Both the position numbers and the translations under genes were made by a program. From Escherichia coli (GTDB lineage: Bacteria; Pseudomonadota; Gammaproteobacteria; Enterobacterales; Enterobacteriaceae), in the NCBI RefSeq assembly GCF_036507355.1, contig NZ_AP027877.1: 64,000 nt of DNA; one strand, written 5' to 3'. This document shows, one piece after another, positions 10,022-52,721 of the stretch; positions within the stretch are counted from its first letter, which is position 1, and each line of letters begins with the position of its first letter. The notes beneath the pieces are model-generated. The model saw only the letters and a list, made by a program, of their open reading frames with translations, had not been told where the DNA came from and did not search any database.

Positions 10022-10152
10022 AGTAGGCATTACTTCTTAATAGTGAAAAGGGGTTAGATAGTACCAAATGGGAAAATGTTAAGTAAGTACTTCTCTATAT
10101 TCTTCAGGTAAACTATCAGCTGATGGTTTATCTATACAAAAAAGGAGTCGGG

Positions 10153-11262
10153 ATGAACGAACAATCCCAGGCCAAATCACCAGAAGCCTTGCGCGCAATG
10201 GTCGCCGGGACACTGGCCAATTTTCAGCACCCAACCCTGAAGCATAACCTCACCACGCTGAAAGCGTTGCACCATGTCGCCTGGATGGACGACACGTTGC
10301 ATGTGGAACTGGTTATGCCATTCGTCTGGCATAGCGCGTTTGAAGAGTTAAAAGAGCAATGTAGCGCCGAACTGCTGCGTATCACCGGGGCGAAAGCTAT
10401 CGACTGGAAACTGTCGCACAATATCGCCACCTTAAAACGCGTGAAGAATCAGCCAGGTATTAATGGCGTGAAGAACATCATTGCGGTCAGTTCCGGTAAA
10501 GGCGGCGTGGGTAAATCCTCCACGGCGGTAAACCTGGCGCTGGCACTGGCGGCGGAAGGGGCGAAAGTCGGCATTCTGGACGCCGATATCTACGGTCCAT
10601 CAATTCCCACCATGCTGGGCGCAGAAAATCAGCGTCCAACTTCGCCGGACGGTACCCATATGGCACCGATTATGTCTCATGGCCTGGCAACCAATTCAAT
10701 TGGTTATCTGGTCACTGACGACAATGCGATGGTGTGGCGTGGACCGATGGCGAGCAAGGCGTTAATGCAGATGTTGCAGGAAACCTTGTGGCCGGATCTC
10801 GACTATCTGGTGCTTGATATGCCGCCAGGCACCGGTGACATTCAATTGACGCTGGCGCAAAACATTCCAGTAACTGGTGCAGTCGTGGTCACCACCCCGC
10901 AGGACATCGCGTTGATCGATGCGAAAAAAGGCATTGTGATGTTCGAGAAAGTCGAGGTTCCGGTGCTCGGTATTGTCGAGAACATGAGTGTGCATATTTG
11001 CAGTAACTGTGGTCACCATGAACCGATTTTCGGTACCGGTGGTGCAGAGAAACTGGCTGAAAAATACCATACACAGCTGCTGGGGCAGATGCCGTTACAC
11101 ATCTCCTTACGTGAGGATCTCGATAAAGGCACGCCAACGGTTATCAGCCGTCCGGAGAGCGAATTTACCGCTATCTACCGCCAGCTGGCTGACCGCGTTG
11201 CAGCTCAGCTCTACTGGCAGGGTGAAGTCATTCCAGGCGAGATTTCCTTCCGCGCGGTCTAA
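10153..11262 (+). CDS. apbC: Fe-S cluster carrier ATPase ApbC/Mrp
   Basis: 369 aa from MNEQSQAKSPEALRAM; P-loop GKGGVGKSST and CxxC (CSNCGHHE). ORF-track start 10123 is an upstream in-frame extension. Confidence 0.9.
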   Translation: MNEQSQAKSPEALRAMVAGTLANFQHPTLKHNLTTLKALHHVAWMDDTLHVELVMPFVWHSAFEELKEQCSAELLRITGAKAIDWKLSHNIATLKRVKNQPGINGVKNIIAVSSGKGGVGKSSTAVNLALALAAEGAKVGILDADIYGPSIPTMLGAENQRPTSPDGTHMAPIMSHGLATNSIGYLVTDDNAMVWRGPMASKALMQMLQETLWPDLDYLVLDMPPGTGDIQLTLAQNIPVTGAVVVTTPQDIALIDAKKGIVMFEKVEVPVLGIVENMSVHICSNCGHHEPIFGTGGAEKLAEKYHTQLLGQMPLHISLREDLDKGTPTVISRPESEFTAIYRQLADRVAAQLYWQGEVIPGEISFRAV

Positions 11263-11523
11263 CGCCTATTAACCATTCTGGTTATTCTTCATACACCGCA
11301 GAGATGTTACATTGATGCGGTGTATTTGTTTTTGCCGCATTAATGAACACTTATTTAATACTGCGAATATTCTGCGGACCTTCGTCCGAAACTCTACAAA
11401 GTCGATTGATCGTACAGGCAGTGCTTCATTATCATCCTTCGTGCTGTGTAGTGGATGTACAGCTATAGTTTGTTATGCACTCATTCTATCCAGGCATAAC
11501 CTTTACTACAGGGATAACGTTCA

Positions 11524-11805
11524 ATGAATAAGTATTGGCTGTTAGGAATTATTTTTCTTGCCTATGGATTGGCTTCTCCCGCGTTCTCTTCAGAGACTGC
11601 CACATTAACGATTAATGGCAGGATCAGCCCCCCAACATGCAGTATGGCTATGGTTAATAGTCAACCTCAACAGCATTGTGGTCAGTTAACGTATAATGTC
11701 GATACCCGTCATCAGGTTTCTTCGCCCGTCAAAGGTGTAACGACAGAAGTGGTTGTTGCAGGTAGTGATAGCAAACGTCGAATCGTGTTAAATCGCTACG
11801 ATTAA
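11524..11805 (+). CDS. yehE: Small secreted protein YehE
   Basis: 93-aa ORF with N-terminal signal peptide; position between apbC and the yeh fimbrial operon as in K-12. Confidence 0.75.
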   Translation: MNKYWLLGIIFLAYGLASPAFSSETATLTINGRISPPTCSMAMVNSQPQQHCGQLTYNVDTRHQVSSPVKGVTTEVVVAGSDSKRRIVLNRYD

Positions 11806-17361: not shown

Positions 17362-17622
17362 ATACTCTCCACTTTGGGGATCAGTAAAATCAGTCGTATA
17401 TCTTTCCCGCCATACAATATAACCGACAAGAGATATTTTGTTAGTGATCCCGTGATTTCGTAAAAAGTGTAAATGAAAGGATGTAGCAAAAGCATCCTCA
17501 TTGAGCGAGAAGTGAGCGGAATAAGCTGATTTAAGAATCATCCTGGGCTAAAAGGATAGCGAAGCCCGGTGATGCTGCCAACTTACTGATTTAGTGTATG
17601 ATGGTGTTTTTGAGGTGCTCCA

Positions 17623-17898
17623 GTGGCTTCTGTTTCTATCAGCTGTCCCTCCTGTTCAGCTACTGACGGGGTGGTGCGTAACGGCAAAAGCACCGCCGGA
17701 CATCAGCGCTATCTCTGCTCTCACTGCCGTAAAACATGGCAACTGCAGTTCACTTACACCGCTTCTCAACCCGGTACGCACCAGAAAATCATTGATATGG
17801 CCATGAATGGCGTTGGATGCCGGGCAACAGCCCGCATTATGGGCGTTGGCCTCAACACGATTTTACGTCACTTAAAAAACTCAGGCCGCAGTCGGTAA
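17623..17898 (+). CDS. insA: IS1 InsA
   Basis: Identical 91-aa InsA. Confidence 0.9.
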
Positions 17899-18320
17899 CC
17901 TCGCGCATACAGCCGGGCAGTGACGTCATCGTCTGCGCGGAAATGGACGAACAGTGGGGCTATGTCGGGGCTAAATCGCGCCAGCGCTGGCTGTTTTACG
18001 CGTATGACAGGCTCCGGAAGACGGTTGTTGCGCACGTATTCGGTGAACGCACGATGGCGACGCTGGGGCGTCTTATGAGCCTGCTGTCACCCTTTGACGT
18101 GGTGATATGGATGACGGATGGCTGGCCGCTGTATGAATCCCGCCTGAAGGGAAAGCTGCACGTAATCAGCAAGCGATATACGCAGCGAATTGAGCGGCAT
18201 AACCTGAATCTGAGGCAGCACCTGGCACGGCTGGGACGGAAGTCGCTGTCGTTCTCAAAATCGGTGGAGCTGCATGACAAAGTCATCGGGCATTATCTGA
18301 ACATAAAACACTATCAATAA
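17817..18320 (+). CDS. insB: IS1 InsB
   Basis: Identical 167-aa InsB. Confidence 0.9.
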
Positions 18321-18355
18321 GTTGGAGTCATTACCGCGAAGCCCAGGTGATTGTT

Positions 18356-19189
18356 TTATCTCATAATACCCATAAAGCCATGCACTCCCATATACACCCC
18401 GACTAAACCAATTAACAGACTGGAAAAATAGGGGGCGCGTTTAGCGAGAGTGTTAAATCCGCTCCAGCGTTTTGCAACTTGTTGAACACTGATTGCCGCT
18501 CCAACGCCTACTGTAACCAGCGTTAATGCCAGGCCGATGCTGAAACTGACGACCAGTGTTGCGCCCAGTGTCAGGGCTTTCAACTGAATGCAAATCAATA
18601 GCACGGTAATTGCTGCCGGGCAGGGAATAAGGCCACCTGTTAAGCCAAATAACAAAATTTGCCAGTTGGTGACCTCTCTACCATCAAAGCGTCGTTTAAT
18701 GTCATTGGCATGGGCTCGTGCATGGGCATCCTGATACTCTTCGTTGTCGCCATGTTCATGATGGTGATGATGTTCGTGGTCGTGGTCTTGATGATGTTCG
18801 TGATCGTGATGATGGTGATCATGCCCGTACATATTCTCCAGCCAGTTGCGTTCGCCGCGCCAGGTACGCCAGAACATCCAGAAAGCGGTGCTAATAATGA
18901 TCACTGCGGAAATCAACTGGAGCCACGGTTCTGCTGATTGAGCAGTAAAGCGCTTGCTGATCACCATCCCGCCAAAGGCAATCAACCAGACCACTGCGGT
19001 ATGCGAAATGGTTGCTGCCAGTCCGAGCATCACCGCCTGTTTAATGGTGCCTTTGATGGCGATGATAAACGCCGCCATCATCGTTTTTGAGTGCCCTGGT
19101 TCCAGGCCATGAAGCGCACCAAGTAAGATGGCGCTGGGGATGAAGAACCAGGCGTTTCCTTGCTGAAGAAGAGTTGTAAATTCGATCAT
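18356..19189 (-). CDS. rcnA: Nickel/cobalt efflux transporter RcnA
   Basis: 277 aa, multi-pass membrane protein with His-rich loop (HDHHHHDHEHHQDHDHEHHHHHEHGD). Confidence 0.95.
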   Translation of the reverse strand: MIEFTTLLQQGNAWFFIPSAILLGALHGLEPGHSKTMMAAFIIAIKGTIKQAVMLGLAATISHTAVVWLIAFGGMVISKRFTAQSAEPWLQLISAVIIISTAFWMFWRTWRGERNWLENMYGHDHHHHDHEHHQDHDHEHHHHHEHGDNEEYQDAHARAHANDIKRRFDGREVTNWQILLFGLTGGLIPCPAAITVLLICIQLKALTLGATLVVSFSIGLALTLVTVGVGAAISVQQVAKRWSGFNTLAKRAPYFSSLLIGLVGVYMGVHGFMGIMR

Positions 19190-19220
19190 GATAATAATTC
19201 TTAGTATTAATTCGGCAATC

Positions 19221-19262
19221 TGATTCTACTCCCCCCCAGTACCTGATACTACCCCCCAGTAG
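19221..19262. promoter_or_regulatory. RcnR operator sites in the rcnR-rcnA divergent promoter
   Basis: Two TACT-C7/C6-AGTA elements (TACTCCCCCCCAGTA and TACTACCCCCCAGTA), the G/C-tract inverted-repeat type bound by RcnR. Confidence 0.75.
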
Positions 19263-19309
19263 ATTAATAGTGCTATGATTTTTCATGTTCTTGTTAACCA
19301 GGTGTTGCC

Positions 19310-19582
19310 ATGTCTCATACAATCCGTGATAAACAGAAACTGAAAGCGCGTGCCAGTAAGATTCAGGGCCAGGTCGTGGCGCTCAAGAAAATGCTCGACG
19401 AGCCGCACGAATGCGCTGCAGTTTTACAACAGATTGCTGCTATCCGTGGCGCGGTAAACGGTCTGATGCGGGAAGTGATTAAAGGTCATCTAACGGAACA
19501 TATCGTTCACCAGGGGGATGAGCTAAAACGTGAAGAAGATCTGGATGTTGTTCTGAAGGTGCTGGATTCTTATATCAAATGA
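19310..19582 (+). CDS. rcnR: Ni/Co-responsive repressor RcnR (CsoR/RcnR family)
   Basis: 90-aa [64 protein letters not shown]. Confidence 0.95.
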
Positions 19583-19691
19583 AAGTGCCTAATATGGCCG
19601 TAGTTGAGGCAATAAATAGAGGGACAAGTGACGTTAAGCTGAATTAGAGTAAATGGCGTGAGGACACACGCCATTCGAGGTTATAGTTTGA

Positions 19692-20006
19692 TTAATTTTC
19701 GAAAAATTGCTTCACAGCCCAGCCACCATGACCACCTGGAGTTATGAATGAAACAAAACCTTTGTCATCTACGCTCTGGATTTCTACCGTCATTGATTCA
19801 TCTAACACGCGACATTTATTGGATGTAATGAGACTCAGCATAGCCTGTTGGTCATTGTCCAGGATGTAACTGATCATCTCGTAAAAGTCAGTTAACTTTT
19901 TACAGTTAAATGTACCTTCTTTAAGTGTTGCGCTGTCTCCGTGACTTAGTGCGAATGCATTTGGCATCATTGCCACAAAGATGACGGTAACGAGTAGTTT
20001 TTTCAT
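19692..20006 (-). CDS. Hypothetical small secreted protein (two Cys), accessory
   Basis: 104-aa ORF; N-terminal signal peptide MKKLLVTVIFVAMMPNAFA; I recognise no family. Confidence 0.5.
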   Translation of the reverse strand: MKKLLVTVIFVAMMPNAFALSHGDSATLKEGTFNCKKLTDFYEMISYILDNDQQAMLSLITSNKCRVLDESMTVEIQSVDDKGFVSFITPGGHGGWAVKQFFEN

Positions 20007-20015
20007 TTTAGCCTC

Positions 20016-20363
20016 TTATAATTCAGAACATTCACTGATGTTGTAAGTGCCTTTTCTACCATCATCGTTTACGAGATGTAGCACGAAGATGATGGGATTG
20101 GCATCAATGAAAGATACAGAGACGTTCCCGCTTTCGGTGCTATACATCTTTGCAATCTGTTTTTCACCAATATATGAGAGATCCCAACTCACTCCGTTCA
20201 AGCTAAAATGCATCTGTTTGCCGACAATATCGATGGAGGATTGTGCCGTAACGGTTTTCCCATTGCTGCCAATTTGACCCTGCTGAAGAGCATCACATTT
20301 ATAGGAGCTTGCATAAGTAGATAGAGGTAGTAGCAGAAGTGCAGCAAAAATTTTACTCTTCAT
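20016..20363 (-). CDS. Hypothetical small secreted protein (Cys near both ends of mature chain), accessory
   Basis: 115-aa ORF; signal peptide MKSKIFAALLLLPLSTYA; lies 9 bp upstream of the preceding ORF on the same strand. Confidence 0.5.
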   Translation of the reverse strand: MKSKIFAALLLLPLSTYASSYKCDALQQGQIGSNGKTVTAQSSIDIVGKQMHFSLNGVSWDLSYIGEKQIAKMYSTESGNVSVSFIDANPIIFVLHLVNDDGRKGTYNISECSEL

Positions 20364-21414
20364 ATTTTCCCTTTGCTTGGATTTGAGTTACCTATTTTGG
20401 GGTAGTCATTATAAAACTATTAATTAGTAAAACGAACAAGTTTTCATTTGTTTAGCAATGGTATTGTTTAGGTTTGAAATTATTACGTATTTTCATAGCA
20501 ATAGATTGGATAAACAGCAGTTCAGGGAACAAGTTGCACTATCTACATACTTTTCCGCTTTCCATTGCATGTTAGGTAATAGATAGCCTTTGCCCGTAAG
20601 ACTAAAAATATTAGAAATGACTCATTCGAATACCTTCTATTCACCTTAATATAGGTTTGATTATTGTAATCGTTTAATGTGTCTTATGGATTTTTTCCTA
20701 CTTTTCATTTGCATAATATAGGGGGCACAGCATGCTCTTGAAATTAATTATTAAAATATTTAAATTTTACAGCACACAACTACTTTTCGTTGTCTTATGT
20801 GTTGAACGTACTTCGAGTATAGGTAGGGTTGTATATATATTGCGTGGGTAGAGTTAGAATAGAGGAAGCATCATTTATAGAATATTCAAGAACGTTAGCC
20901 TGTGATCAATAAATAAAAATATCAAATGGTGTTCAAACATATTTTTCTATGAAAAATCCAGCCATCTATGATGAATTTTTAGATCCATTTTAATTAAAGT
21001 ATGATTATGAACCAAGATTTAGCCAAGAATGGTGGTATAGCGCGTATCCAATGACACCGGAAAACGCATCTATGAAGTCCTTATTTATCTCTATAAGAGG
21101 AAATCAACACTAATAAAATGTAGTGATGTAACATATCGAGCAGGTTGCTCTGATGCTGGTCTTCAACTGTGGCTTAAACAGCTATCAAACTTCGGTGTTA
21201 TTGAGATGAAAGAATTATCATTCTCAACTATCAATCTCAAAAAGCTAGAGAAAATAGACCTTAATTATTCCACTCTCTAAATTTATCTATTTATTTAAAG
21301 TAAAAATGAAAATATTATGGTATCAGCCACGTGGTGGTAACTGGTTTTTATGATCATAGGTACATATACAGGGAACCCTGGAAAACGAAAGTAATATATT
21401 GATGATTTCGTTTG

Positions 21415-21654
21415 TTATAACTTCGTGGTATCAAGTCCGGCGGCTTTGAGTCGCTCGGTAAGATTTCTCATTTTGCTGAACTCTGTAGCAAAGCTGGCTT
21501 TAAGTCCTACACCTTCGCAAAACTCTTTTGCCGTGACGTTTTTCAGATGGTCAGCGTATTTGATCATCTGGAGGTGCATTTCCATCGTTTGGCTATTTCG
21601 TGGTGCGCTGCTAATGGCTTGCTTAATGTTCTCGTAGATCTGGGTTTCTGTCAT
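21415..21654 (-). CDS. Hypothetical small protein, possible HTH DNA-binding
   Basis: ORF-track frame 21415..21672; an internal Met (MTETQIYEN...) is preceded by GGTGAG at suitable spacing. The segment AKEFCEGVGLKASFATEFSKM looks helix-turn-helix-like. Sits at the edge of an AT-rich islet. Confidence 0.4.
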   Translation of the reverse strand: MTETQIYENIKQAISSAPRNSQTMEMHLQMIKYADHLKNVTAKEFCEGVGLKASFATEFSKMRNLTERLKAAGLDTTKL

Positions 21655-21852
21655 TTTTATCTCACCTATCAAATTTAGATAAATAATATAAATTAGCTAA
21701 TTAAGATAGTCTACAGTTTTTACCACCTGAATGATGGGTGTGAATTGTTTCTTTTTCATTACTGATATGGGGTACACAGTGAAGACGTAATGAATGGATG
21801 CGAGCTTGCATCTGCAAGTCACTTCCCCTAATCTGGCACAAAATATAGAGAT

Positions 21853-21987
21853 TCAACCAAACGACTCGGGGTGCCCTTCTGCGTGAAGGCTGAGAAATAC
21901 CCGTATCACCTGATCTGGATAATGCCAGCGTAGGGAAGTCACGGACCACCAGGTCATTGCTTCTTCACGTTATGGCAGGAGCAAACT
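21853..21987 (+). promoter_or_regulatory. TPP (THI-box) riboswitch in the thiM leader
   Basis: CTCGGGGTGCCCTTCTGCGTGAAGGCTGAGAAATACCCGTATCACCTGATCTGGATAATGCCAGCGTAGGGAA directly upstream of the thiM start. Confidence 0.9.
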
Positions 21988-22776
21988 ATGCAAGTCGACC
22001 TGCTGAGTTCCGTGCAATCTGCGCACACGTTACACCTTTTTCACCAACATTCCCCTCTTGTGCATTGCATGACCAACGATGTGGTGCAAACCTTTACTGC
22101 CAATACCTTGCTGGCGATCGGTGCATCGCCAGCGATGGTTATCGAAACCGAAGAGGCCAGTCAGTTTGCGGCTATCGCCAGTGCCTTGTTGATTAACGTT
22201 GGCACACTGACGCAGCCACGCGCACAGGCGATGCGTGCTGCCGTTGAGCAAGCAAAAAGCTCTCAAACACCCTGGACGCTTGATCCAGTAGCGGTTGGTG
22301 CGCTCGATTATCGCCGCCATTTTTGTCATGAACTTTTATCTTTTAAACCGGCAGCGATACGTGGTAATGCTTCGGAAATCATGGCATTAGCTGGCGTTGC
22401 TAATGGTGGACGGGGAGTGGATACCACTGACGCCGCAGCTAACGCGATACCCGCTGCACAAACACTGGCACGGGAAACTGGCGCAATCGTCGTGGTCACT
22501 GGCGAGGTGGATTATGTTACCGATGGCCATCGCGCCGTTGGCATTCACGGTGGCGATCCGTTAATGACCAAAGTGGTAGGAACTGGCTGTGCATTATCGG
22601 CGGTTGTCGCTGCCTGCTGTGCGTTACCAGGCGATACGCTGGAAAATGTCGCATCTGCCTGTCACTGGATGAAACAAGCCGGAGAGCGCGCAGTCGCCAG
22701 AAGCGAGGGGCCAGGCAGTTTTGTTCCACATTTCCTTGATGCGCTCTGGCAATTGACGCAGGAGGTGCAGGCATGA
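21988..22776 (+). CDS. thiM: Hydroxyethylthiazole kinase
   Basis: 262-aa ORF; 4-bp overlap with thiD. Confidence 0.95.
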
Positions 22777-38117: not shown

Positions 38118-38204
38118 AAAAAATAAGCCCGTGTAAGGGAGATTACACAGGCTAAGGAGGTGGTTCCTGGTACAGCTAGCATTTTATGGGTTATGTTTTT
38201 CAGC
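38118..38204 (-). ncRNA. cyaR: Hfq-dependent sRNA CyaR (RyeE)
   Basis: Reverse complement reads GCTGAAAAACATAACCCATAAAATGCTAGCTGTACCAGGAACCACCTCCTTAGCCTGTGTAATCTCCCTTACACGGGCTTATTTTTT, which matches CyaR as I remember it, including the terminator hairpin and U-tail. Confidence 0.85.
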
Positions 38205-38288
38205 GAAACGGATGATAACCTTAATAAATGCAGCTGTATGTGATCGGTTTCTAAGAATTTTCCATCCGGGAAAAATAATCGAAATTAA

Positions 38289-52289: not shown

Positions 52290-52435
52290 GCCCCTCCCGA
52301 GGAAGGGGCCATAAATAAGGAAAGGGTCATGATGAAGATACTCATCATCGTGGCGCTCTTAGTGATTAGCTACCCAGCATACTAAGACTACCAGGGCGGG
52401 GGAAACCCCGCTCTACCCTCACTCCTGAAAGTATG
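52290..52435 (-). ncRNA. sib: Sib antisense sRNA (antitoxin) overlapping ibs; ends approximate
   Basis: In Ibs/Sib loci the Sib RNA is encoded fully antisense to ibs; hairpin CCCCTCCCGAGGAAGGGG lies upstream of ibs (candidate Sib terminator on the minus strand). Confidence 0.35.
52329..52385 (+). CDS. ibs: Ibs-family type I toxin (18 aa)
   Basis: ATGATGAAGATACTCATCATCGTGGCGCTCTTAGTGATTAGCTACCCAGCATACTAA encodes MMKILIIVALLVISYPAY; good RBS (AAGGAAAGGG) upstream. Confidence 0.75.
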   Translation: MMKILIIVALLVISYPAY

Positions 52436-52721
52436 CCTTCACGTTCAGAATGTCAATCCGCAGGCTTTGCAGTCTGCGATCCTGCCAGCAAATATTCTTT
52501 GCGAGACGTTACGCAATAATCACAGAGGAAACTATTTTGTTCACGCGTTAGCGATAGACTGAATTCAGGGCGAAAGGAGGTAAGCCGACGATTTCAGCGG
52601 GACGCTGAAACGGGAAAGCCCCTCCCGAGGAAGGGGCCTTAAATAAGGTAAGTTGCACATTTAAAATCTCTTTAATTATCAATAAACTACAATGTATAGG
52701 TCATTATTAGTCAAAATAAAA

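What the first reader, a model, noticed from the sequence alone, without database searches (positions are those of the whole stretch)
19583..21856. AT-rich islet between rcnR and the thiM riboswitch encoding two small secreted proteins and a small HTH-like protein
From memory, K-12 has only a few hundred bp between rcnR and thiM. Here there are about 2.3 kb: two tandem minus-strand ORFs with clear signal peptides (104 and 115 aa, each with two Cys, no family I recognise), about 1 kb of AT-rich non-coding DNA with only short decayed-looking reading frames, and a 79 to 85-aa ORF with a possible helix-turn-helix. This looks like a horizontally acquired islet of unknown function; the secreted proteins could be inhibitor- or immunity-type periplasmic proteins.
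Basis: partly seen in the sequence, partly recalled or inferred. Interest (0 to 1): 0.55.

Follow-up and report, generated by a model that had tools for sequence, protein, structure and literature searches.

The report
Dead defence island at thiM riboswitch
The 2.3-kb AT-rich islet is the immobile stump of a mobile anti-phage "defence island" that inserts into the thiamine riboswitch in front of thiM; it keeps a known small repressor (RptR family) and two secreted proteins of unknown function.

Summary
K-12-type E. coli has 222 bp between rcnR and thiM; the window has 2405 bp, at 30-43% GC. The extra DNA occurs in about 340 of 5426 complete E. coli genomes, mostly O157:H7 and O55:H7.

It is the decayed remnant of a 7-13 kb integrative island. 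Intact copies sit at this site in E. coli and next to thiM in Klebsiella. The attL junction with a following integrase occurs in several other Enterobacterales. Intact islands are flanked by an 82-bp direct repeat of the thiM TPP-riboswitch aptamer. They carry a tyrosine integrase, variable anti-phage cargo, a serine recombinase, small secreted proteins, a replication-initiator-like gene and a terminal rptR gene.

The window keeps only attR and the right end. One deletion, ending inside the rcnR stop codon, removed the native thiM promoter region, attL, integrase, cargo and recombinase.

- **79-aa ORF:** an RptR-family repressor (about 75% identical to PDB 9R2Z) with its operator, but no defence gene downstream.
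- **"Non-coding" kilobase:** holds two pseudogene fragments.
- **Two secreted proteins:** real genes (dN/dS about 0.05). One is an SH3-like fold, the other an 8-stranded beta-barrel. Both are restricted to such islands; function unknown.

Interest is moderate.

The parts
19581..19583 (+). Left junction of the islet, inside the rcnR stop codon (K-12 TAA, here TGA). rcnR stays 90 aa.
   Evidence: BLAST against the K-12-type locus L002: homology ends at window 19580. rcnR ORF is 19310-19582.
19651..19676 (-). Terminator-like hairpin downstream of the 104-aa gene (10-bp stem GAAUGGCGUG/CACGCCAUUU).
   Evidence: Fold energy -15.3 kcal/mol, z = -3.95. The GGCGyGA...TCACGCC stem is conserved in PEC389, Klebsiella and L008 relatives.
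19692..20006 (-). Gene for a 104-aa secreted protein (O157 ECs_2910, labelled 'outer membrane protein' by PGAP). Signal peptide, then an SH3/Tudor-like small barrel with a two-helix insert and 2 Cys.
20016..20363 (-). Gene for a 115-aa secreted protein (O157 ECs_2909). Signal peptide, then a predicted 8-9-stranded beta-barrel; Cys23 and Cys112 are invariant.
20364..20849 (.). AT-rich ORF-free stretch specific to the O157-type islet. It presumably holds the promoter of the 115/104 gene pair; otherwise unexplained.
20850..20990 (+). Pseudogene fragment: the last 47 codons of a replication-initiator-like HTH protein, with an in-frame stop.
   Evidence: tblastn with the 199-aa protein of island USMARC-49610: 45% identity, E 1.5e-11, stop inside, conserved C-terminal ...DxF..PF motif. 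The intact homologues match PHROG replication-initiation families.
21050..21280 (+). Truncated copy of a conserved 81-aa island gene. The first 15 codons and the start codon are missing; a stop codon lies at 21038-21040 just upstream.
21415..21654 (-). rptR homologue (79 aa, O157 ECs_2908). A small autoregulated repressor of defence-island promoters; here no gene lies downstream of it.
   Evidence: Pfam HTH_73, E 2e-30. PDB 9R2Z 'Transcription factor' = RptR, E 1.5e-31. Residues E25, E58, S60, K61, L69, A72 and L74, named in PMC12255303, are all present. dN/dS 0.04-0.08.
21676..21713 (-). rptR promoter and operator. TAGATA (21676-81) and TAGCTA (21694-99) lie 18 bp apart, i.e. two 9-bp registers. 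They flank the -10 box TATATT (21690-21685 on the minus strand); the -35 box TAGACT is at 21713-21708.
   Evidence: Pattern search. Promoter scan. The array is conserved, with 2-3 sites in 9-bp register, in ECZP248, MRE162, PEC389 and O157. The published site rules are TAGCTA/TAGATA/TATCTA/TATATA, at least 2 sites, overlapping -10.
21767..21820 (+). Conserved right-end block of the island. It holds the ATGGGGTACA motif (21767-76; 2-3 tandem copies in intact islands) and the palindrome CTTGCA-TC-TGCAAG (21807-20). These are inferred integrase arm-type or accessory-factor sites.
   Evidence: Alignment of right ends from seven islands. A similar GGTACAAAA motif sits next to int at attL. The function is an inference.
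21854..21935 (+). attR core: 82 bp of the TPP aptamer, 100% identical to the second (attL) copy in strains with an intact island.
21857..21953 (+). thiM TPP riboswitch aptamer, the only copy in the window. The native expression platform and thiM (21988-22776) follow.
   Evidence: Rfam RF00059, 71.2 bits. 97% identity to K-12 from 21854 onward.

Best explanation
**What it is.** The islet is the decayed, immobile right-hand portion of a tyrosine-integrase-borne genomic island of 7-13 kb. The island's chromosomal attachment site is the aptamer of the thiM TPP riboswitch.

**Layout of an intact island.** Reading from rcnR towards thiM:
1. The native thiM promoter.
2. An aptamer copy (attL).
3. int.
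4. Variable anti-phage cargo.
5. A serine recombinase.
6. One to three small secreted proteins.
7. An ORF-poor AT-rich stretch.
8. An RHH gene, a replication-initiator-like gene and an 81-aa gene.
9. Sometimes a methyl-directed restriction enzyme.
10. rptR.
11. An aptamer copy (attR), followed by the native expression platform and thiM.

Integration exchanges strands inside the 82-bp shared aptamer segment. The island brings its own 5' part of the aptamer and rebuilds a complete riboswitch in front of thiM. The native promoter is left at attL.

**What happened in the window's lineage (inferred).**
- One deletion ran from the rcnR stop codon to about 70 bp beyond the 104-aa gene. It removed the native thiM promoter region, attL, int, the cargo and the serine recombinase.
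- A second deletion removed most of the replication gene and the start of the 81-aa gene.

**What remains.**
- A two-gene unit for secreted proteins (115 aa then 104 aa), ending in a conserved hairpin.
- An orphan rptR that should still repress its own promoter. It would do so through two 6-bp palindromes bracketing the -10 box.
- attR. thiMD must now be transcribed from island DNA rather than from its native promoter.

**Shown.** The site, the repeat, the architecture of intact relatives, the homologies and the pseudogene fragments.

**Inferred.** The order of the deletions, RptR autoregulation in this strain, the source of thiMD transcription, and any present-day role of the secreted proteins. 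My best guess for those proteins is that they are envelope-acting accessory or exclusion factors of the island. Confidence in that guess is low.
For: **Empty site.** A K-12-type strain has 90 bp between rcnR and the aptamer.

**Intact islands at exactly this site, each with two TPP aptamer copies and an integrase beside attL.**
- PEC389.
- ECZP248, MRE162 and USMARC-49610.

**Same arrangement in other genera.**
- In Klebsiella the island sits next to thiM but has a different left neighbour (Usp), so the target is the riboswitch rather than rcnR.
- The attL junction sequence occurs in 10 species-representative genomes, including Enterobacter, Citrobacter, Silvania, Erwinia, Atlantibacter and Pantoea.
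- An integrase 75-79% identical follows the junction in 9 of the 10. Both aptamer copies lie within the DNA retrieved only for Silvania.

**Attachment-site structure.**
- The 82-bp repeat is 100% identical between the window's attR and the attL of relatives.
- attL has native sequence up to GTAGGG and island sequence after it.
- attR carries island-type polymorphisms only in its 5' part.

**Window genes match island backbone genes.**
- The 104- and 115-aa genes are 76% identical in nucleotides to those of PEC389, in the same order next to the recombinase.
- Pseudogene fragments of the replication gene and the 81-aa gene are present.

**Cargo is defence-related.**
- PADLOC matches: TIR-STAND/PDC-S60, SIR2/PDC-S25 and PD-Lambda-2 as cargo, and mREase_II for the restriction gene beside rptR.
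- From the record annotation: HNH endonuclease and AIPR.

**Mobility parts are missing from the window.** There is no second aptamer and no integrase. In E. coli the integrase occurs in 222 genomes, while the int-less islet occurs in about 340.

**RptR identity and operator.**

**Promoter loss.** The K-12 promoter-like TTTACA-17-TACCAT lies in the 90 bp missing from the window. No equivalent plus-strand site is found upstream of the window's aptamer.

**Prior record.** Hochhauser et al. 2023 list an 'rcnR-thiM' defence locus, with RM_type_IV and MGE type 'None'.
Against: - No complete genome holds an intact island closely related (at least 95%) to the window's left module. The ancestor is therefore reconstructed from mosaics of more distant variants.
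- Window 19583-19645 and 20364-20849 have no recognisable counterpart in any intact island examined. More than two rearrangements, or a replacement by recombination with an unsampled variant, is possible.
- Excision and integration activity of the integrase has not been shown experimentally. The crossover point is only bracketed, and the Klebsiella polymorphism pattern does not bracket it in the same place as the E. coli ones.
- How the island moves between cells is unknown. No transfer or packaging genes were seen in the thiM-site islands.
- All three intact genes could still be under selection in this lineage. 'Dead' applies to mobility and not necessarily to function.
Confidence: 0.85

Rival explanations
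1. The islet is a still-functional minimal module kept by selection in the O157:H7/O55:H7 (and Shigella-like) lineage. The two secreted proteins would act in the envelope, for example to exclude phage or protect the wall. RptR would control them or the adjacent thiMD operon.
For: - All three ORFs are intact although the rest of the island has gone.
- The families evolve under strong purifying selection, with dN/dS 0.04-0.12 between variants.
- The 115-aa family is present in every intact island inspected, so it is a backbone gene.
- The rptR promoter and operator are intact.
- thiMD has lost its native promoter and depends on island DNA about 150 bp from the rptR promoter.
Against: - The carriers are largely one clonal group, so retention may only reflect a short time since the deletion.
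- Against O157, the window's only two changes in the secreted-protein genes are both nonsynonymous. They fall at family-conserved positions (104: Q49L; 115: D47V), which hints at relaxed constraint. The numbers are tiny.
- No RptR-type site pair was seen at the 115/104 promoter.
- No PADLOC match.
Confidence: 0.3
2. The 115-aa protein is a periplasmic lysozyme inhibitor of the PliC/MliC type, or a similar immunity barrel.
For: - It is secreted, about 95 aa when mature, with two conserved Cys near the mature N terminus and the C terminus. The predicted fold is an 8-9-stranded up-and-down barrel.
Against: - Unrelated barrels score higher: Cap15 9.1, OmpW 8.5, and designed barrels 8.3.
- The model is only moderately confident, pLDDT 65.
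- There is no Pfam match at all, so no MliC family signal.
- Sequence identity to the PliC/MliC hits is 7-9%.
Confidence: 0.1
3. The islet is a prophage or phage-satellite remnant and not a defence island. All three proteins hit PHROG families, and related modules sit in thrW elements that carry capsid and tail genes.
For: - The three proteins give full-length PHROG matches: phrog_33226, phrog_35183 and phrog_30666.
- The Rep-like/81-aa module is shared at about 71-75% nucleotide identity with roughly 11-kb thrW-integrated elements. Those encode a major head protein, a tape-measure-like protein and a baseplate protein.
- The island's replication-initiator-like gene is of the phage O/DnaD type.
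Against: - The 50,697 phage records contain no match to the islet, even in distant mode.
- None of the six thiM-site islands inspected carries a capsid, terminase or tail gene.
- The three PHROGs have unknown function and high family numbers. That is consistent with small families built from predicted prophage regions (my inference).
Confidence: 0.2
4. The long form is ancestral core DNA that K-12 and most E. coli lost.
For: None beyond the bare presence/absence pattern.
Against: - GC is 30-43% against about 50% in the flanks.
- The short form is in about 90% of genomes across the species and carries the thiM promoter-like site.
- The long forms are bounded by an integrase and a duplicated target, the signature of insertion.
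Confidence: 0.02

Closest known systems
RptR (RMS-proximal transcriptional regulator) of the EPEC E2348/69 RRDM defence island; PDB 9R2Z; Zhang et al., NAR 2025 (PMC12255303); Pfam HTH_73 (PF24718)
   Same: - 79 aa, a single four-helix domain, about 75% identical over residues 1-77.
- All residues singled out for DNA binding or dimerisation are present (E25, E58, S60, K61, L69, A72, L74).
- It has its own promoter carrying TAGCTA/TAGATA palindromes in 9-bp register around the -10 box.
- It lies at the edge of a defence island.
   Different: - In the window nothing lies downstream of it, so it is an orphan.
- In intact thiM-site islands it precedes a DUF6998 / methyl-directed restriction enzyme, and not a Type I RM-DarTG operon.
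- Only two exact sites are present (plus AATATA and AAGATA near-sites), against three in EPEC.
- Binding was not tested here.
Integrase-borne genomic islands and satellites that integrate into tRNA/tmRNA genes and carry a replacement copy of the target segment, such as P4-like satellites with defence hotspots (Rousset et al. 2022, PMC9122126). The comparison rests on general knowledge.
   Same: - A tyrosine integrase sits next to one att site.
- A direct repeat of part of a structured-RNA-encoding target flanks the element.
- The element rebuilds the target.
- A variable defence-cargo hotspot sits beside conserved backbone genes.
- Decayed, integrase-less remnants are left behind at the site.
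   Different: - The target is a riboswitch aptamer in the 5' leader of an operon, not the 3' end of a tRNA gene.
- The island therefore separates the operon from its native promoter and supplies the 5' half of the aptamer.
- The integrase ends up just downstream of the host promoter and an aptamer copy.
- I found no description of this att site in the searchable literature.
'rcnR-thiM' defence-gene locus in the E. coli pan-genome survey of Hochhauser et al. 2023 (PMC10121019, supplementary table)
   Same: Same chromosomal interval. It is recorded as carrying defence genes: a type IV restriction enzyme in a 7,956-bp, 8-gene insert.
   Different: - It is listed with MGE type 'None' and is not among the numbered hotspots.
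- The integrase, the riboswitch duplication and the O157-type remnant are not described in the passages retrieved.
Serine recombinases as markers of anti-phage defence loci (Andersen et al., bioRxiv 2025, PMC12632615)
   Same: In every intact thiM-site island, a roughly 185-aa resolvase/invertase-type recombinase borders the variable defence cargo. The secreted-protein genes lie next to it.
   Different: - The recombinase gene has been deleted from the window.
- I read only the abstract and outline, so whether their recombinase family is the same one was not tested.
PliC/MliC periplasmic lysozyme inhibitors
   Different: - No sequence or Pfam relationship.
- Other unrelated barrels score higher.
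- No activity data.

Membership tests
RptR / Pfam HTH_73 | Sequence membership: about 79-aa single-domain protein matching the family profile and the solved RptR structure sequence | tested here: met
   Pfam HTH_73 E 2e-30, covering model positions 1-70 of 71. PDB 9R2Z chain A E 1.5e-31 over residues 1-77. 734 homologues, nearly all 79 aa.
RptR / Pfam HTH_73 | Conserved alpha-4 DNA-binding residues (E58, K61; S60) and dimer residues (E25, L69, A72, L74) | tested here: met
   All are present in the window protein, read from the alignment against the residue list in the paper.
RptR / Pfam HTH_73 | At least two 6-bp palindromes (TAGCTA/TAGATA/TATCTA/TATATA) in 9-bp register in its own promoter, overlapping the -10 box | tested here: met
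   TAGATA at 21676-81 and TAGCTA at 21694-99, 18 bp apart, bracket the predicted -10 at 21685-90. The arrangement is conserved in related islands. Single sites are not enriched in the window as a whole (39 observed against 38 expected), so the argument rests on position and register.
RptR / Pfam HTH_73 | First gene of a restriction or defence operon that it represses | tested here: not met
   No gene follows rptR on its strand in the window; the next feature is a convergent pseudogene. In PEC389, MRE162 and ECZP248 it is followed by DUF6998 = PADLOC mREase_II, E 2.4e-93. The window copy is a family member by sequence but an orphan by context.
RptR / Pfam HTH_73 | Binds the operator DNA as a dimer and represses transcription | not testable with these tools
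   Needs an EMSA or a reporter assay.
Site-specific integrative island (tyrosine integrase type) | Integrase gene adjacent to one end | tested here: not met
   There is no integrase in the window islet. An integrase is present at attL in all intact relatives. The window is therefore filed as a remnant and not as a functional element.
Site-specific integrative island (tyrosine integrase type) | Flanking direct repeats (attL/attR) derived from the target | tested here: not met
   The window has a single TPP aptamer, i.e. attR only. Relatives have the 82-bp repeat at both ends.
Site-specific integrative island (tyrosine integrase type) | Same target sequence used in different genomic backgrounds | tested here: met
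   The thiM aptamer is the target in E. coli (left flank rcnR) and Klebsiella (left flank Usp). Silvania also shows both aptamer copies. The attL junction with a following integrase is seen in Enterobacter, Citrobacter, Erwinia and Atlantibacter.
Site-specific integrative island (tyrosine integrase type) | Demonstrated excision or integration | not testable with these tools
   Needs attP/attB junction PCR or long-read evidence.
TPP riboswitch (RF00059) | Covariance-model score above the gathering threshold, full-length match | tested here: met
   71.2 bits against 54.3, model positions 1-105.
Outer membrane protein (the PGAP/Sakai label for the 104-aa protein) | Transmembrane beta-barrel or another recognised OMP family | tested here: not met
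   A confident model (pLDDT about 94) shows an SH3/Tudor-like five-strand barrel plus two helices in 85 mature residues. No OMP family was found in Pfam or NCBIfam. The label is unsupported.
PliC/MliC lysozyme inhibitors | Family profile match (Pfam MliC) or conserved inhibitory motifs | tested here: not met
   No Pfam hit for the 115-aa protein, even at E <= 10.
PliC/MliC lysozyme inhibitors | 8-stranded periplasmic beta-barrel fold | tested here: inconclusive
   [not shown]
Phage satellite (P4-like, PICI, cfPICI) | Hallmark genes: primase/replicase plus packaging-redirection or capsid genes; helper dependence | tested here: inconclusive
   Intact thiM-site islands have a phage O/DnaD-like initiator but no capsid or packaging genes. 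thrW elements sharing the Rep module do have head and tail-like genes. Helper dependence cannot be tested here.

The most novel reading that the evidence does not exclude
A widespread family of Enterobacterales defence islands uses a riboswitch aptamer as its attachment site and rewires the host operon.
- The island supplies the 5' half of the thiM TPP aptamer, kept foldable by compensatory changes, and a surrogate promoter for thiMD.
- Its integrase sits directly behind the native thiamine-regulated promoter and an aptamer copy. Island maintenance or excision could therefore sense thiamine status.
- In the window's lineage the island died, but thiMD stayed hostage to island DNA next to an RptR-controlled promoter.
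- The conserved secreted proteins (115 and 104 aa) would be a new envelope-acting anti-phage or exclusion module retained by selection.
Probability: 0.15. Interest if true: 0.7.

Novelty: new member of a known kind. Interest (0 to 1): 0.42.

Why it matters
**For the window.** The result turns three 'hypothetical' or mislabelled O157:H7-type genes into something interpretable. They become an orphan RptR repressor, plus two backbone proteins of a defence-island family. It also explains the AT-rich 'non-coding' DNA as gene debris.

**More generally.**
- It identifies the rcnR-thiM interval as a true integrase attachment site whose core is a riboswitch aptamer. I could not find that target class described.
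- In every carrier, including all O157:H7, the thiamine-salvage operon thiMD has been cut off from its native promoter-like region and must be read from island DNA. This is a testable case of a mobile element rewiring a riboswitch-controlled operon.
- It flags two tiny secreted-protein families that travel with serine recombinases at defence hotspots. They are candidates for envelope-level functions.

Tried and rejected
- **Phage records.** A distant-mode search with the whole islet found no match, so a recognisable prophage origin was dropped.
- **Plasmids.** The single hit is in a 438-kb 'plasmid' record at 99.6% identity, probably a chromosomal piece. It is not evidence of plasmid carriage.
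- **Protein families for the two secreted proteins.**
  - Pfam, NCBIfam and PADLOC gave nothing. The only Pfam signal was a non-significant DUF4369 hit at E 0.014.
  - The PHROG hits are to function-unknown families that probably contain these very proteins.
  - An exhaustive profile search for the 115-aa family found no remote relatives.
- **Fold searches.** They gave only generic folds: SH3/Tudor, and 8-stranded barrels.
- **Repeats in the AT-rich kilobase.** I looked for iterons or other repeats and found only chance-level short AT-rich matches.
- **Rfam at permissive threshold over the islet.** Only the TPP aptamer was found; no second aptamer and no sRNA.
- **Surrogate thiM promoter.** The consensus scan finds none on the plus strand. 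By eye, the best conserved candidate is weak: TTGCAT-17-TAATCT at about 21808-21836. This is left open.
- **Exact crossover point.** I tried to place it from polymorphisms. The E. coli variants put it 3' of the P3 loop, and the Klebsiella pattern is not consistent with that unless its island copy already matched the host. Not resolved.
- **Window 19583-19645.** It did not align to the region downstream of the 104-aa gene in relatives, apart from the hairpin.
- **Literature.** Searches for the O157 locus tags, DUF6998, and riboswitch att sites returned nothing relevant.


Full report
**1. The observation**

The window carries these genes in order:
- rcnA (18356-19189, minus strand)
- rcnR (19310-19582, plus strand)
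- thiM (21988-22776)
- thiD
- yegX

Rfam finds one TPP aptamer at 21857-21953, at 71.2 bits against a gathering score of 54.3. It finds nothing else in 19200-22100 even at a permissive threshold, and no second TPP aptamer anywhere in the 64 kb.

In a K-12-type genome, rcnR is separated from the aptamer by about 90 bp and from the thiM start by 222 bp. In the window the rcnR-thiM distance is 2405 bp.

Homology to K-12 stops at 19580, inside the rcnR stop codon. The codon is TAA in K-12 and TGA here, so rcnR keeps its length. Homology resumes at 21854, the 5' edge of the aptamer.

GC falls to 0.30-0.43 inside the islet, against 0.48-0.58 outside.

**2. Distribution**

| Feature | Complete E. coli genomes (of 5426) |
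|---|---|
| Aptamer matched | 5424 |
| At least 80% of the 2.4-kb interval | 339 |
| Left module (two secreted-protein genes) | 343 |
| Central stretch | 338 |

Carriers are O157:H7, O55:H7 and a few other strains. The best identity to the window is 99.5%, so no complete E. coli genome is identical. No complete E. coli genome has the window's IS1 insertion between rcnB and rcnA as one contiguous piece. My inference is that the source is a close relative of the O157 lineage, possibly a Shigella. This was not tested.

**3. What occupies the site elsewhere**

Other strains carry 7-13 kb inserts at exactly this position.

| Strain | Cargo between int and the serine recombinase |
|---|---|
| PEC389 | TIR-STAND protein |
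| ECZP248 | HNH endonuclease, AIPR |
| MRE162 | SIR2, three-gene PD-Lambda-2 |
| USMARC-49610 | 316-aa hypothetical protein |

All share one plan, reading from rcnR to thiM:
1. A TPP aptamer copy.
2. A 434-435-aa tyrosine integrase.
3. Variable cargo.
4. A roughly 185-aa serine recombinase.
5. One to three small secreted-protein genes.
6. An ORF-poor AT-rich stretch.
7. A small RHH protein, a 200-250-aa protein matching phage replication-initiator PHROGs, and in some an 81-aa protein.
8. In some, a DUF6998 protein.
9. A 79-aa 'HTH-like' protein.
10. A second TPP aptamer, then thiM.

PADLOC gave these matches:
- TIR-STAND protein: PDC-S60/ThsB-like
- SIR2 protein: PDC-S25
- the two PD-Lambda-2 genes submitted: components B and C
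- DUF6998: type II methyl-directed restriction enzyme, E 2.4e-93

The integrase gene occurs in 222 of 5426 genomes, in several alleles of 74-100% identity, always on chromosomes.

In Klebsiella the same island lies next to thiM, again between two aptamer copies. Its other neighbour is a Usp gene, not rcnR. So the riboswitch is the target, not the rcnR side.

The attL junction sequence (aptamer 3' end fused to the island's left end) occurs in 10 species-representative genomes:
- Enterobacter (2)
- Citrobacter (3)
- Silvania
- Erwinia typographi
- Atlantibacter
- Pantoea septica
- one MAG

An integrase 75-79% identical follows the junction in nine of them. Both aptamer copies lie within the retrieved DNA only for Silvania.

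**4. The attachment site**

- **attL:** native upstream DNA, including the K-12 promoter-like TTTACA-17-TACCAT. Then comes the aptamer up to ...GCGTAGGG, then island DNA. The P1 3' strand is replaced, and the integrase start codon lies 66-100 nt further on.
- **attR:** island DNA plus the aptamer, then the native expression platform and thiM.

In PEC389, MRE162 and ECZP248 the 5' part of the attR aptamer carries island-type differences.
- These differences fall in the P1 5' strand and in P3.
- In ECZP248 the P3 helix changes from CCCTTC...GAAGG to CCCCATC...GATGGG, which keeps the pairing.

The island therefore brings its own 5' half of the aptamer, and that half appears to evolve under structural constraint. 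That last point is an inference from one variant.

These E. coli patterns place the crossover 3' of the P3 loop. The Klebsiella pattern does not bracket it in the same place, so the exact point is unresolved.

**5. Mapping the window onto the island plan**

| Window coordinates | Match |
|---|---|
| 19646-20449 (104- and 115-aa genes) | PEC389 island, 76% nucleotide identity, same order and orientation next to where the serine recombinase lies |
| 20850-20990 | Last 47 codons of a replication-initiator-like protein (45% identity, E 1.5e-11), with an in-frame stop |
| 21050-21247 | Residues 16-81 of the 81-aa protein (76%, E 1.9e-32) |
| 21401-22000 | Right end of PEC389, 84% |

The 81-aa gene fragment has lost its first 15 codons and has a stop codon just upstream.

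The following are missing from the window:
- the 90 bp of native rcnR-aptamer spacer
- attL
- int
- the cargo
- the serine recombinase
- most of the replication gene
- any DUF6998 gene

Two stretches, 19583-19645 and 20364-20849, match nothing outside O157-type islets.

**6. The 79-aa protein**

- It matches Pfam HTH_73 at E 2e-30 and PDB 9R2Z at E 1.5e-31.
- 9R2Z is RptR, a 9-kDa repressor of the EPEC RRDM defence island. RptR binds 6-bp palindromes (TAGCTA, also TAGATA/TATCTA/TATATA). The sites are arranged as 9-bp direct repeats overlapping the -10 box of its own promoter. Two sites are needed for full repression (PMC12255303).
- The window protein has every residue the authors highlight: E25, E58, S60, K61, L69, A72 and L74.
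- Upstream of its ATG lie TAGATA (21676-81) and TAGCTA (21694-99), 18 bp apart.
- These two sites bracket the predicted -10 box, TATATT on the minus strand at 21690-21685. The -35 box TAGACT is at 21713-21708.
- The same array, with two or three sites in 9-bp register, is conserved in related islands.
- The family is very conserved: 73-78% identity in Vibrio, Shewanella and Salmonella.

In the window nothing follows rptR, so it is an orphan regulator. In PEC389, MRE162 and ECZP248 it heads the methyl-directed restriction gene. That fits the 'RM_type_IV' entry for an 'rcnR-thiM' locus in the supplement of Hochhauser et al. 2023.

**7. The two secreted proteins**

Shared features:
- Both have typical SPase-I signal peptides and two conserved Cys.
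- In the alignments the signal peptides vary while the mature parts are nearly invariant.
- dN/dS is 0.045-0.07 between the window and the PEC389 or Klebsiella copies, so these are real genes.
- Neither has a Pfam, NCBIfam or PADLOC family.
- Homologues are confined to Enterobacteriaceae.

The 104-aa protein:
- The model is confident, pLDDT about 94. It is an SH3/Tudor-like small barrel with a two-helix insert.
- Neighbours are generic SH3-like domains and uncharacterised roughly 105-aa secreted proteins or lipoproteins.
- The PGAP label 'outer membrane protein' is not supported.

The 115-aa protein:
- An exhaustive profile search of 1.84 billion representatives finds only two full-length clusters.
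- The model has pLDDT 65 and is an 8-9-stranded barrel.

Context is more telling.
- A 115/116-aa homologue is present in all six intact thiM-site islands inspected and in Citrobacter koseri.
- The 104-aa gene also occurs in a different, tRNA-integrated island. There it again lies beside a resolvase, bordering an Eco29kI restriction-modification cargo.

They are backbone genes linked to the serine recombinase and not cargo. Their function is unknown.

**8. Consequence for thiMD**

In every carrier the operon is separated from the native promoter-like region. In the window that region is deleted outright.

The last roughly 200 bp of the island are strongly conserved among variants and must supply transcription. 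The consensus scan finds no plus-strand promoter there. thiM and thiD remain intact ORFs. This point is open and testable.

**9. Comparison and verdict**

Filing of the parts:
- The islet is a remnant of an integrative defence island, which is a known kind of element.
- Its regulator belongs to a family described in 2025.
- Its two secreted proteins are uncharacterised.

The unusual part is the island family's target, a riboswitch aptamer in a 5' leader. The island rebuilds the aptamer while displacing the promoter. I found no description of this in the searchable literature. It is seen in the window only as the surviving attR.

Scores:
- Confidence in the remnant explanation: 0.85.
- Confidence that the 79-aa protein is an RptR-family member: above 0.9.
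- Confidence in any specific function for the secreted proteins: low.
- Interest: moderate, 0.42.

Noticed in passing
[not shown]
   Followed up: partly
L018 26221-26317 (ECZP248 attR), also L006 13645-13742 and L019 24031-24127: The island-borne 5' half of the attR aptamer differs from the native one in the P1 5' strand and in P3. In ECZP248 the P3 stem is rebuilt with compensatory changes (CCCTTC/GAAGG becomes CCCCATC/GATGGG). This suggests selection on the island to keep the host riboswitch foldable.
   Followed up: partly
L028 5429-8878 (Pantoea septica): The attL junction sequence lies about 3.3 kb from the thiM aptamer. A serine-recombinase homologue is present but there is no integrase hit. 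This looks like an independent integrase-less remnant at the same site in another genus.
   Followed up: no
L006 9889-10113; L019 20323-20529; L018 21796-21990; L012 9249-9497; L030 13001-13219: A third small secreted protein (64-82 aa as called, signal peptide, two Cys, ...CTYQNSIYLFTYVTKGKCPY...) is encoded divergently from the 115/116-aa gene in several intact islands. It is absent from the window.
   Followed up: partly
L004 3170-4930; L006 about 10113-11800; L019 about 20530-21960: Intact islands contain 1-2 kb of AT-rich DNA with almost no ORFs, between the secreted-protein genes and the replication module. The purpose is unknown; an origin, a regulatory region or an RNA are possibilities.
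   Followed up: no
L005 and L016 (thrW/proA locus of strains E32 and 2022E04-002): Elements of about 11 kb integrated at tRNA-Thr share the Rep-like/81-aa module with the thiM-site islands at about 71-75% nucleotide identity. They also encode a major head protein, a tape-measure-like protein and a baseplate/tail-fibre-like protein. They may be capsid-forming satellites.
   Followed up: partly
window about 17560-18330: An IS1 copy (insA-like ORF 17623-17898, insB 17817-18320) is inserted between rcnB and rcnA. No complete E. coli genome shows this arrangement as one contiguous match, and the best islet identity is 99.5%. The source is probably not one of the sequenced E. coli; it may be a Shigella close to the O157 lineage.
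   Followed up: partly
window 19861, 20224 and 21799-21832: The islet differs from O157 Sakai at 11 positions. Each secreted-protein gene has one change, both nonsynonymous and both at family-conserved residues (104: Q49L; 115: D47V). Four further differences cluster in 34 bp just upstream of the aptamer, in the conserved island end.
   Followed up: partly
window 52314-52456, 62691-62833, 63020-63168 (-); 38121-38206 (-): Three Sib antitoxin RNAs and CyaR were detected by Rfam. These are ordinary E. coli features unrelated to the finding.
   Followed up: no
NZ_CP114132.1 50411-51225 (PLSDB 'plasmid', 438,722 bp): This is the only plasmid-collection hit to the secreted-protein genes, at 99.6% identity. 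It lies in a 438-kb record that is probably a misassigned chromosomal fragment.
   Followed up: no
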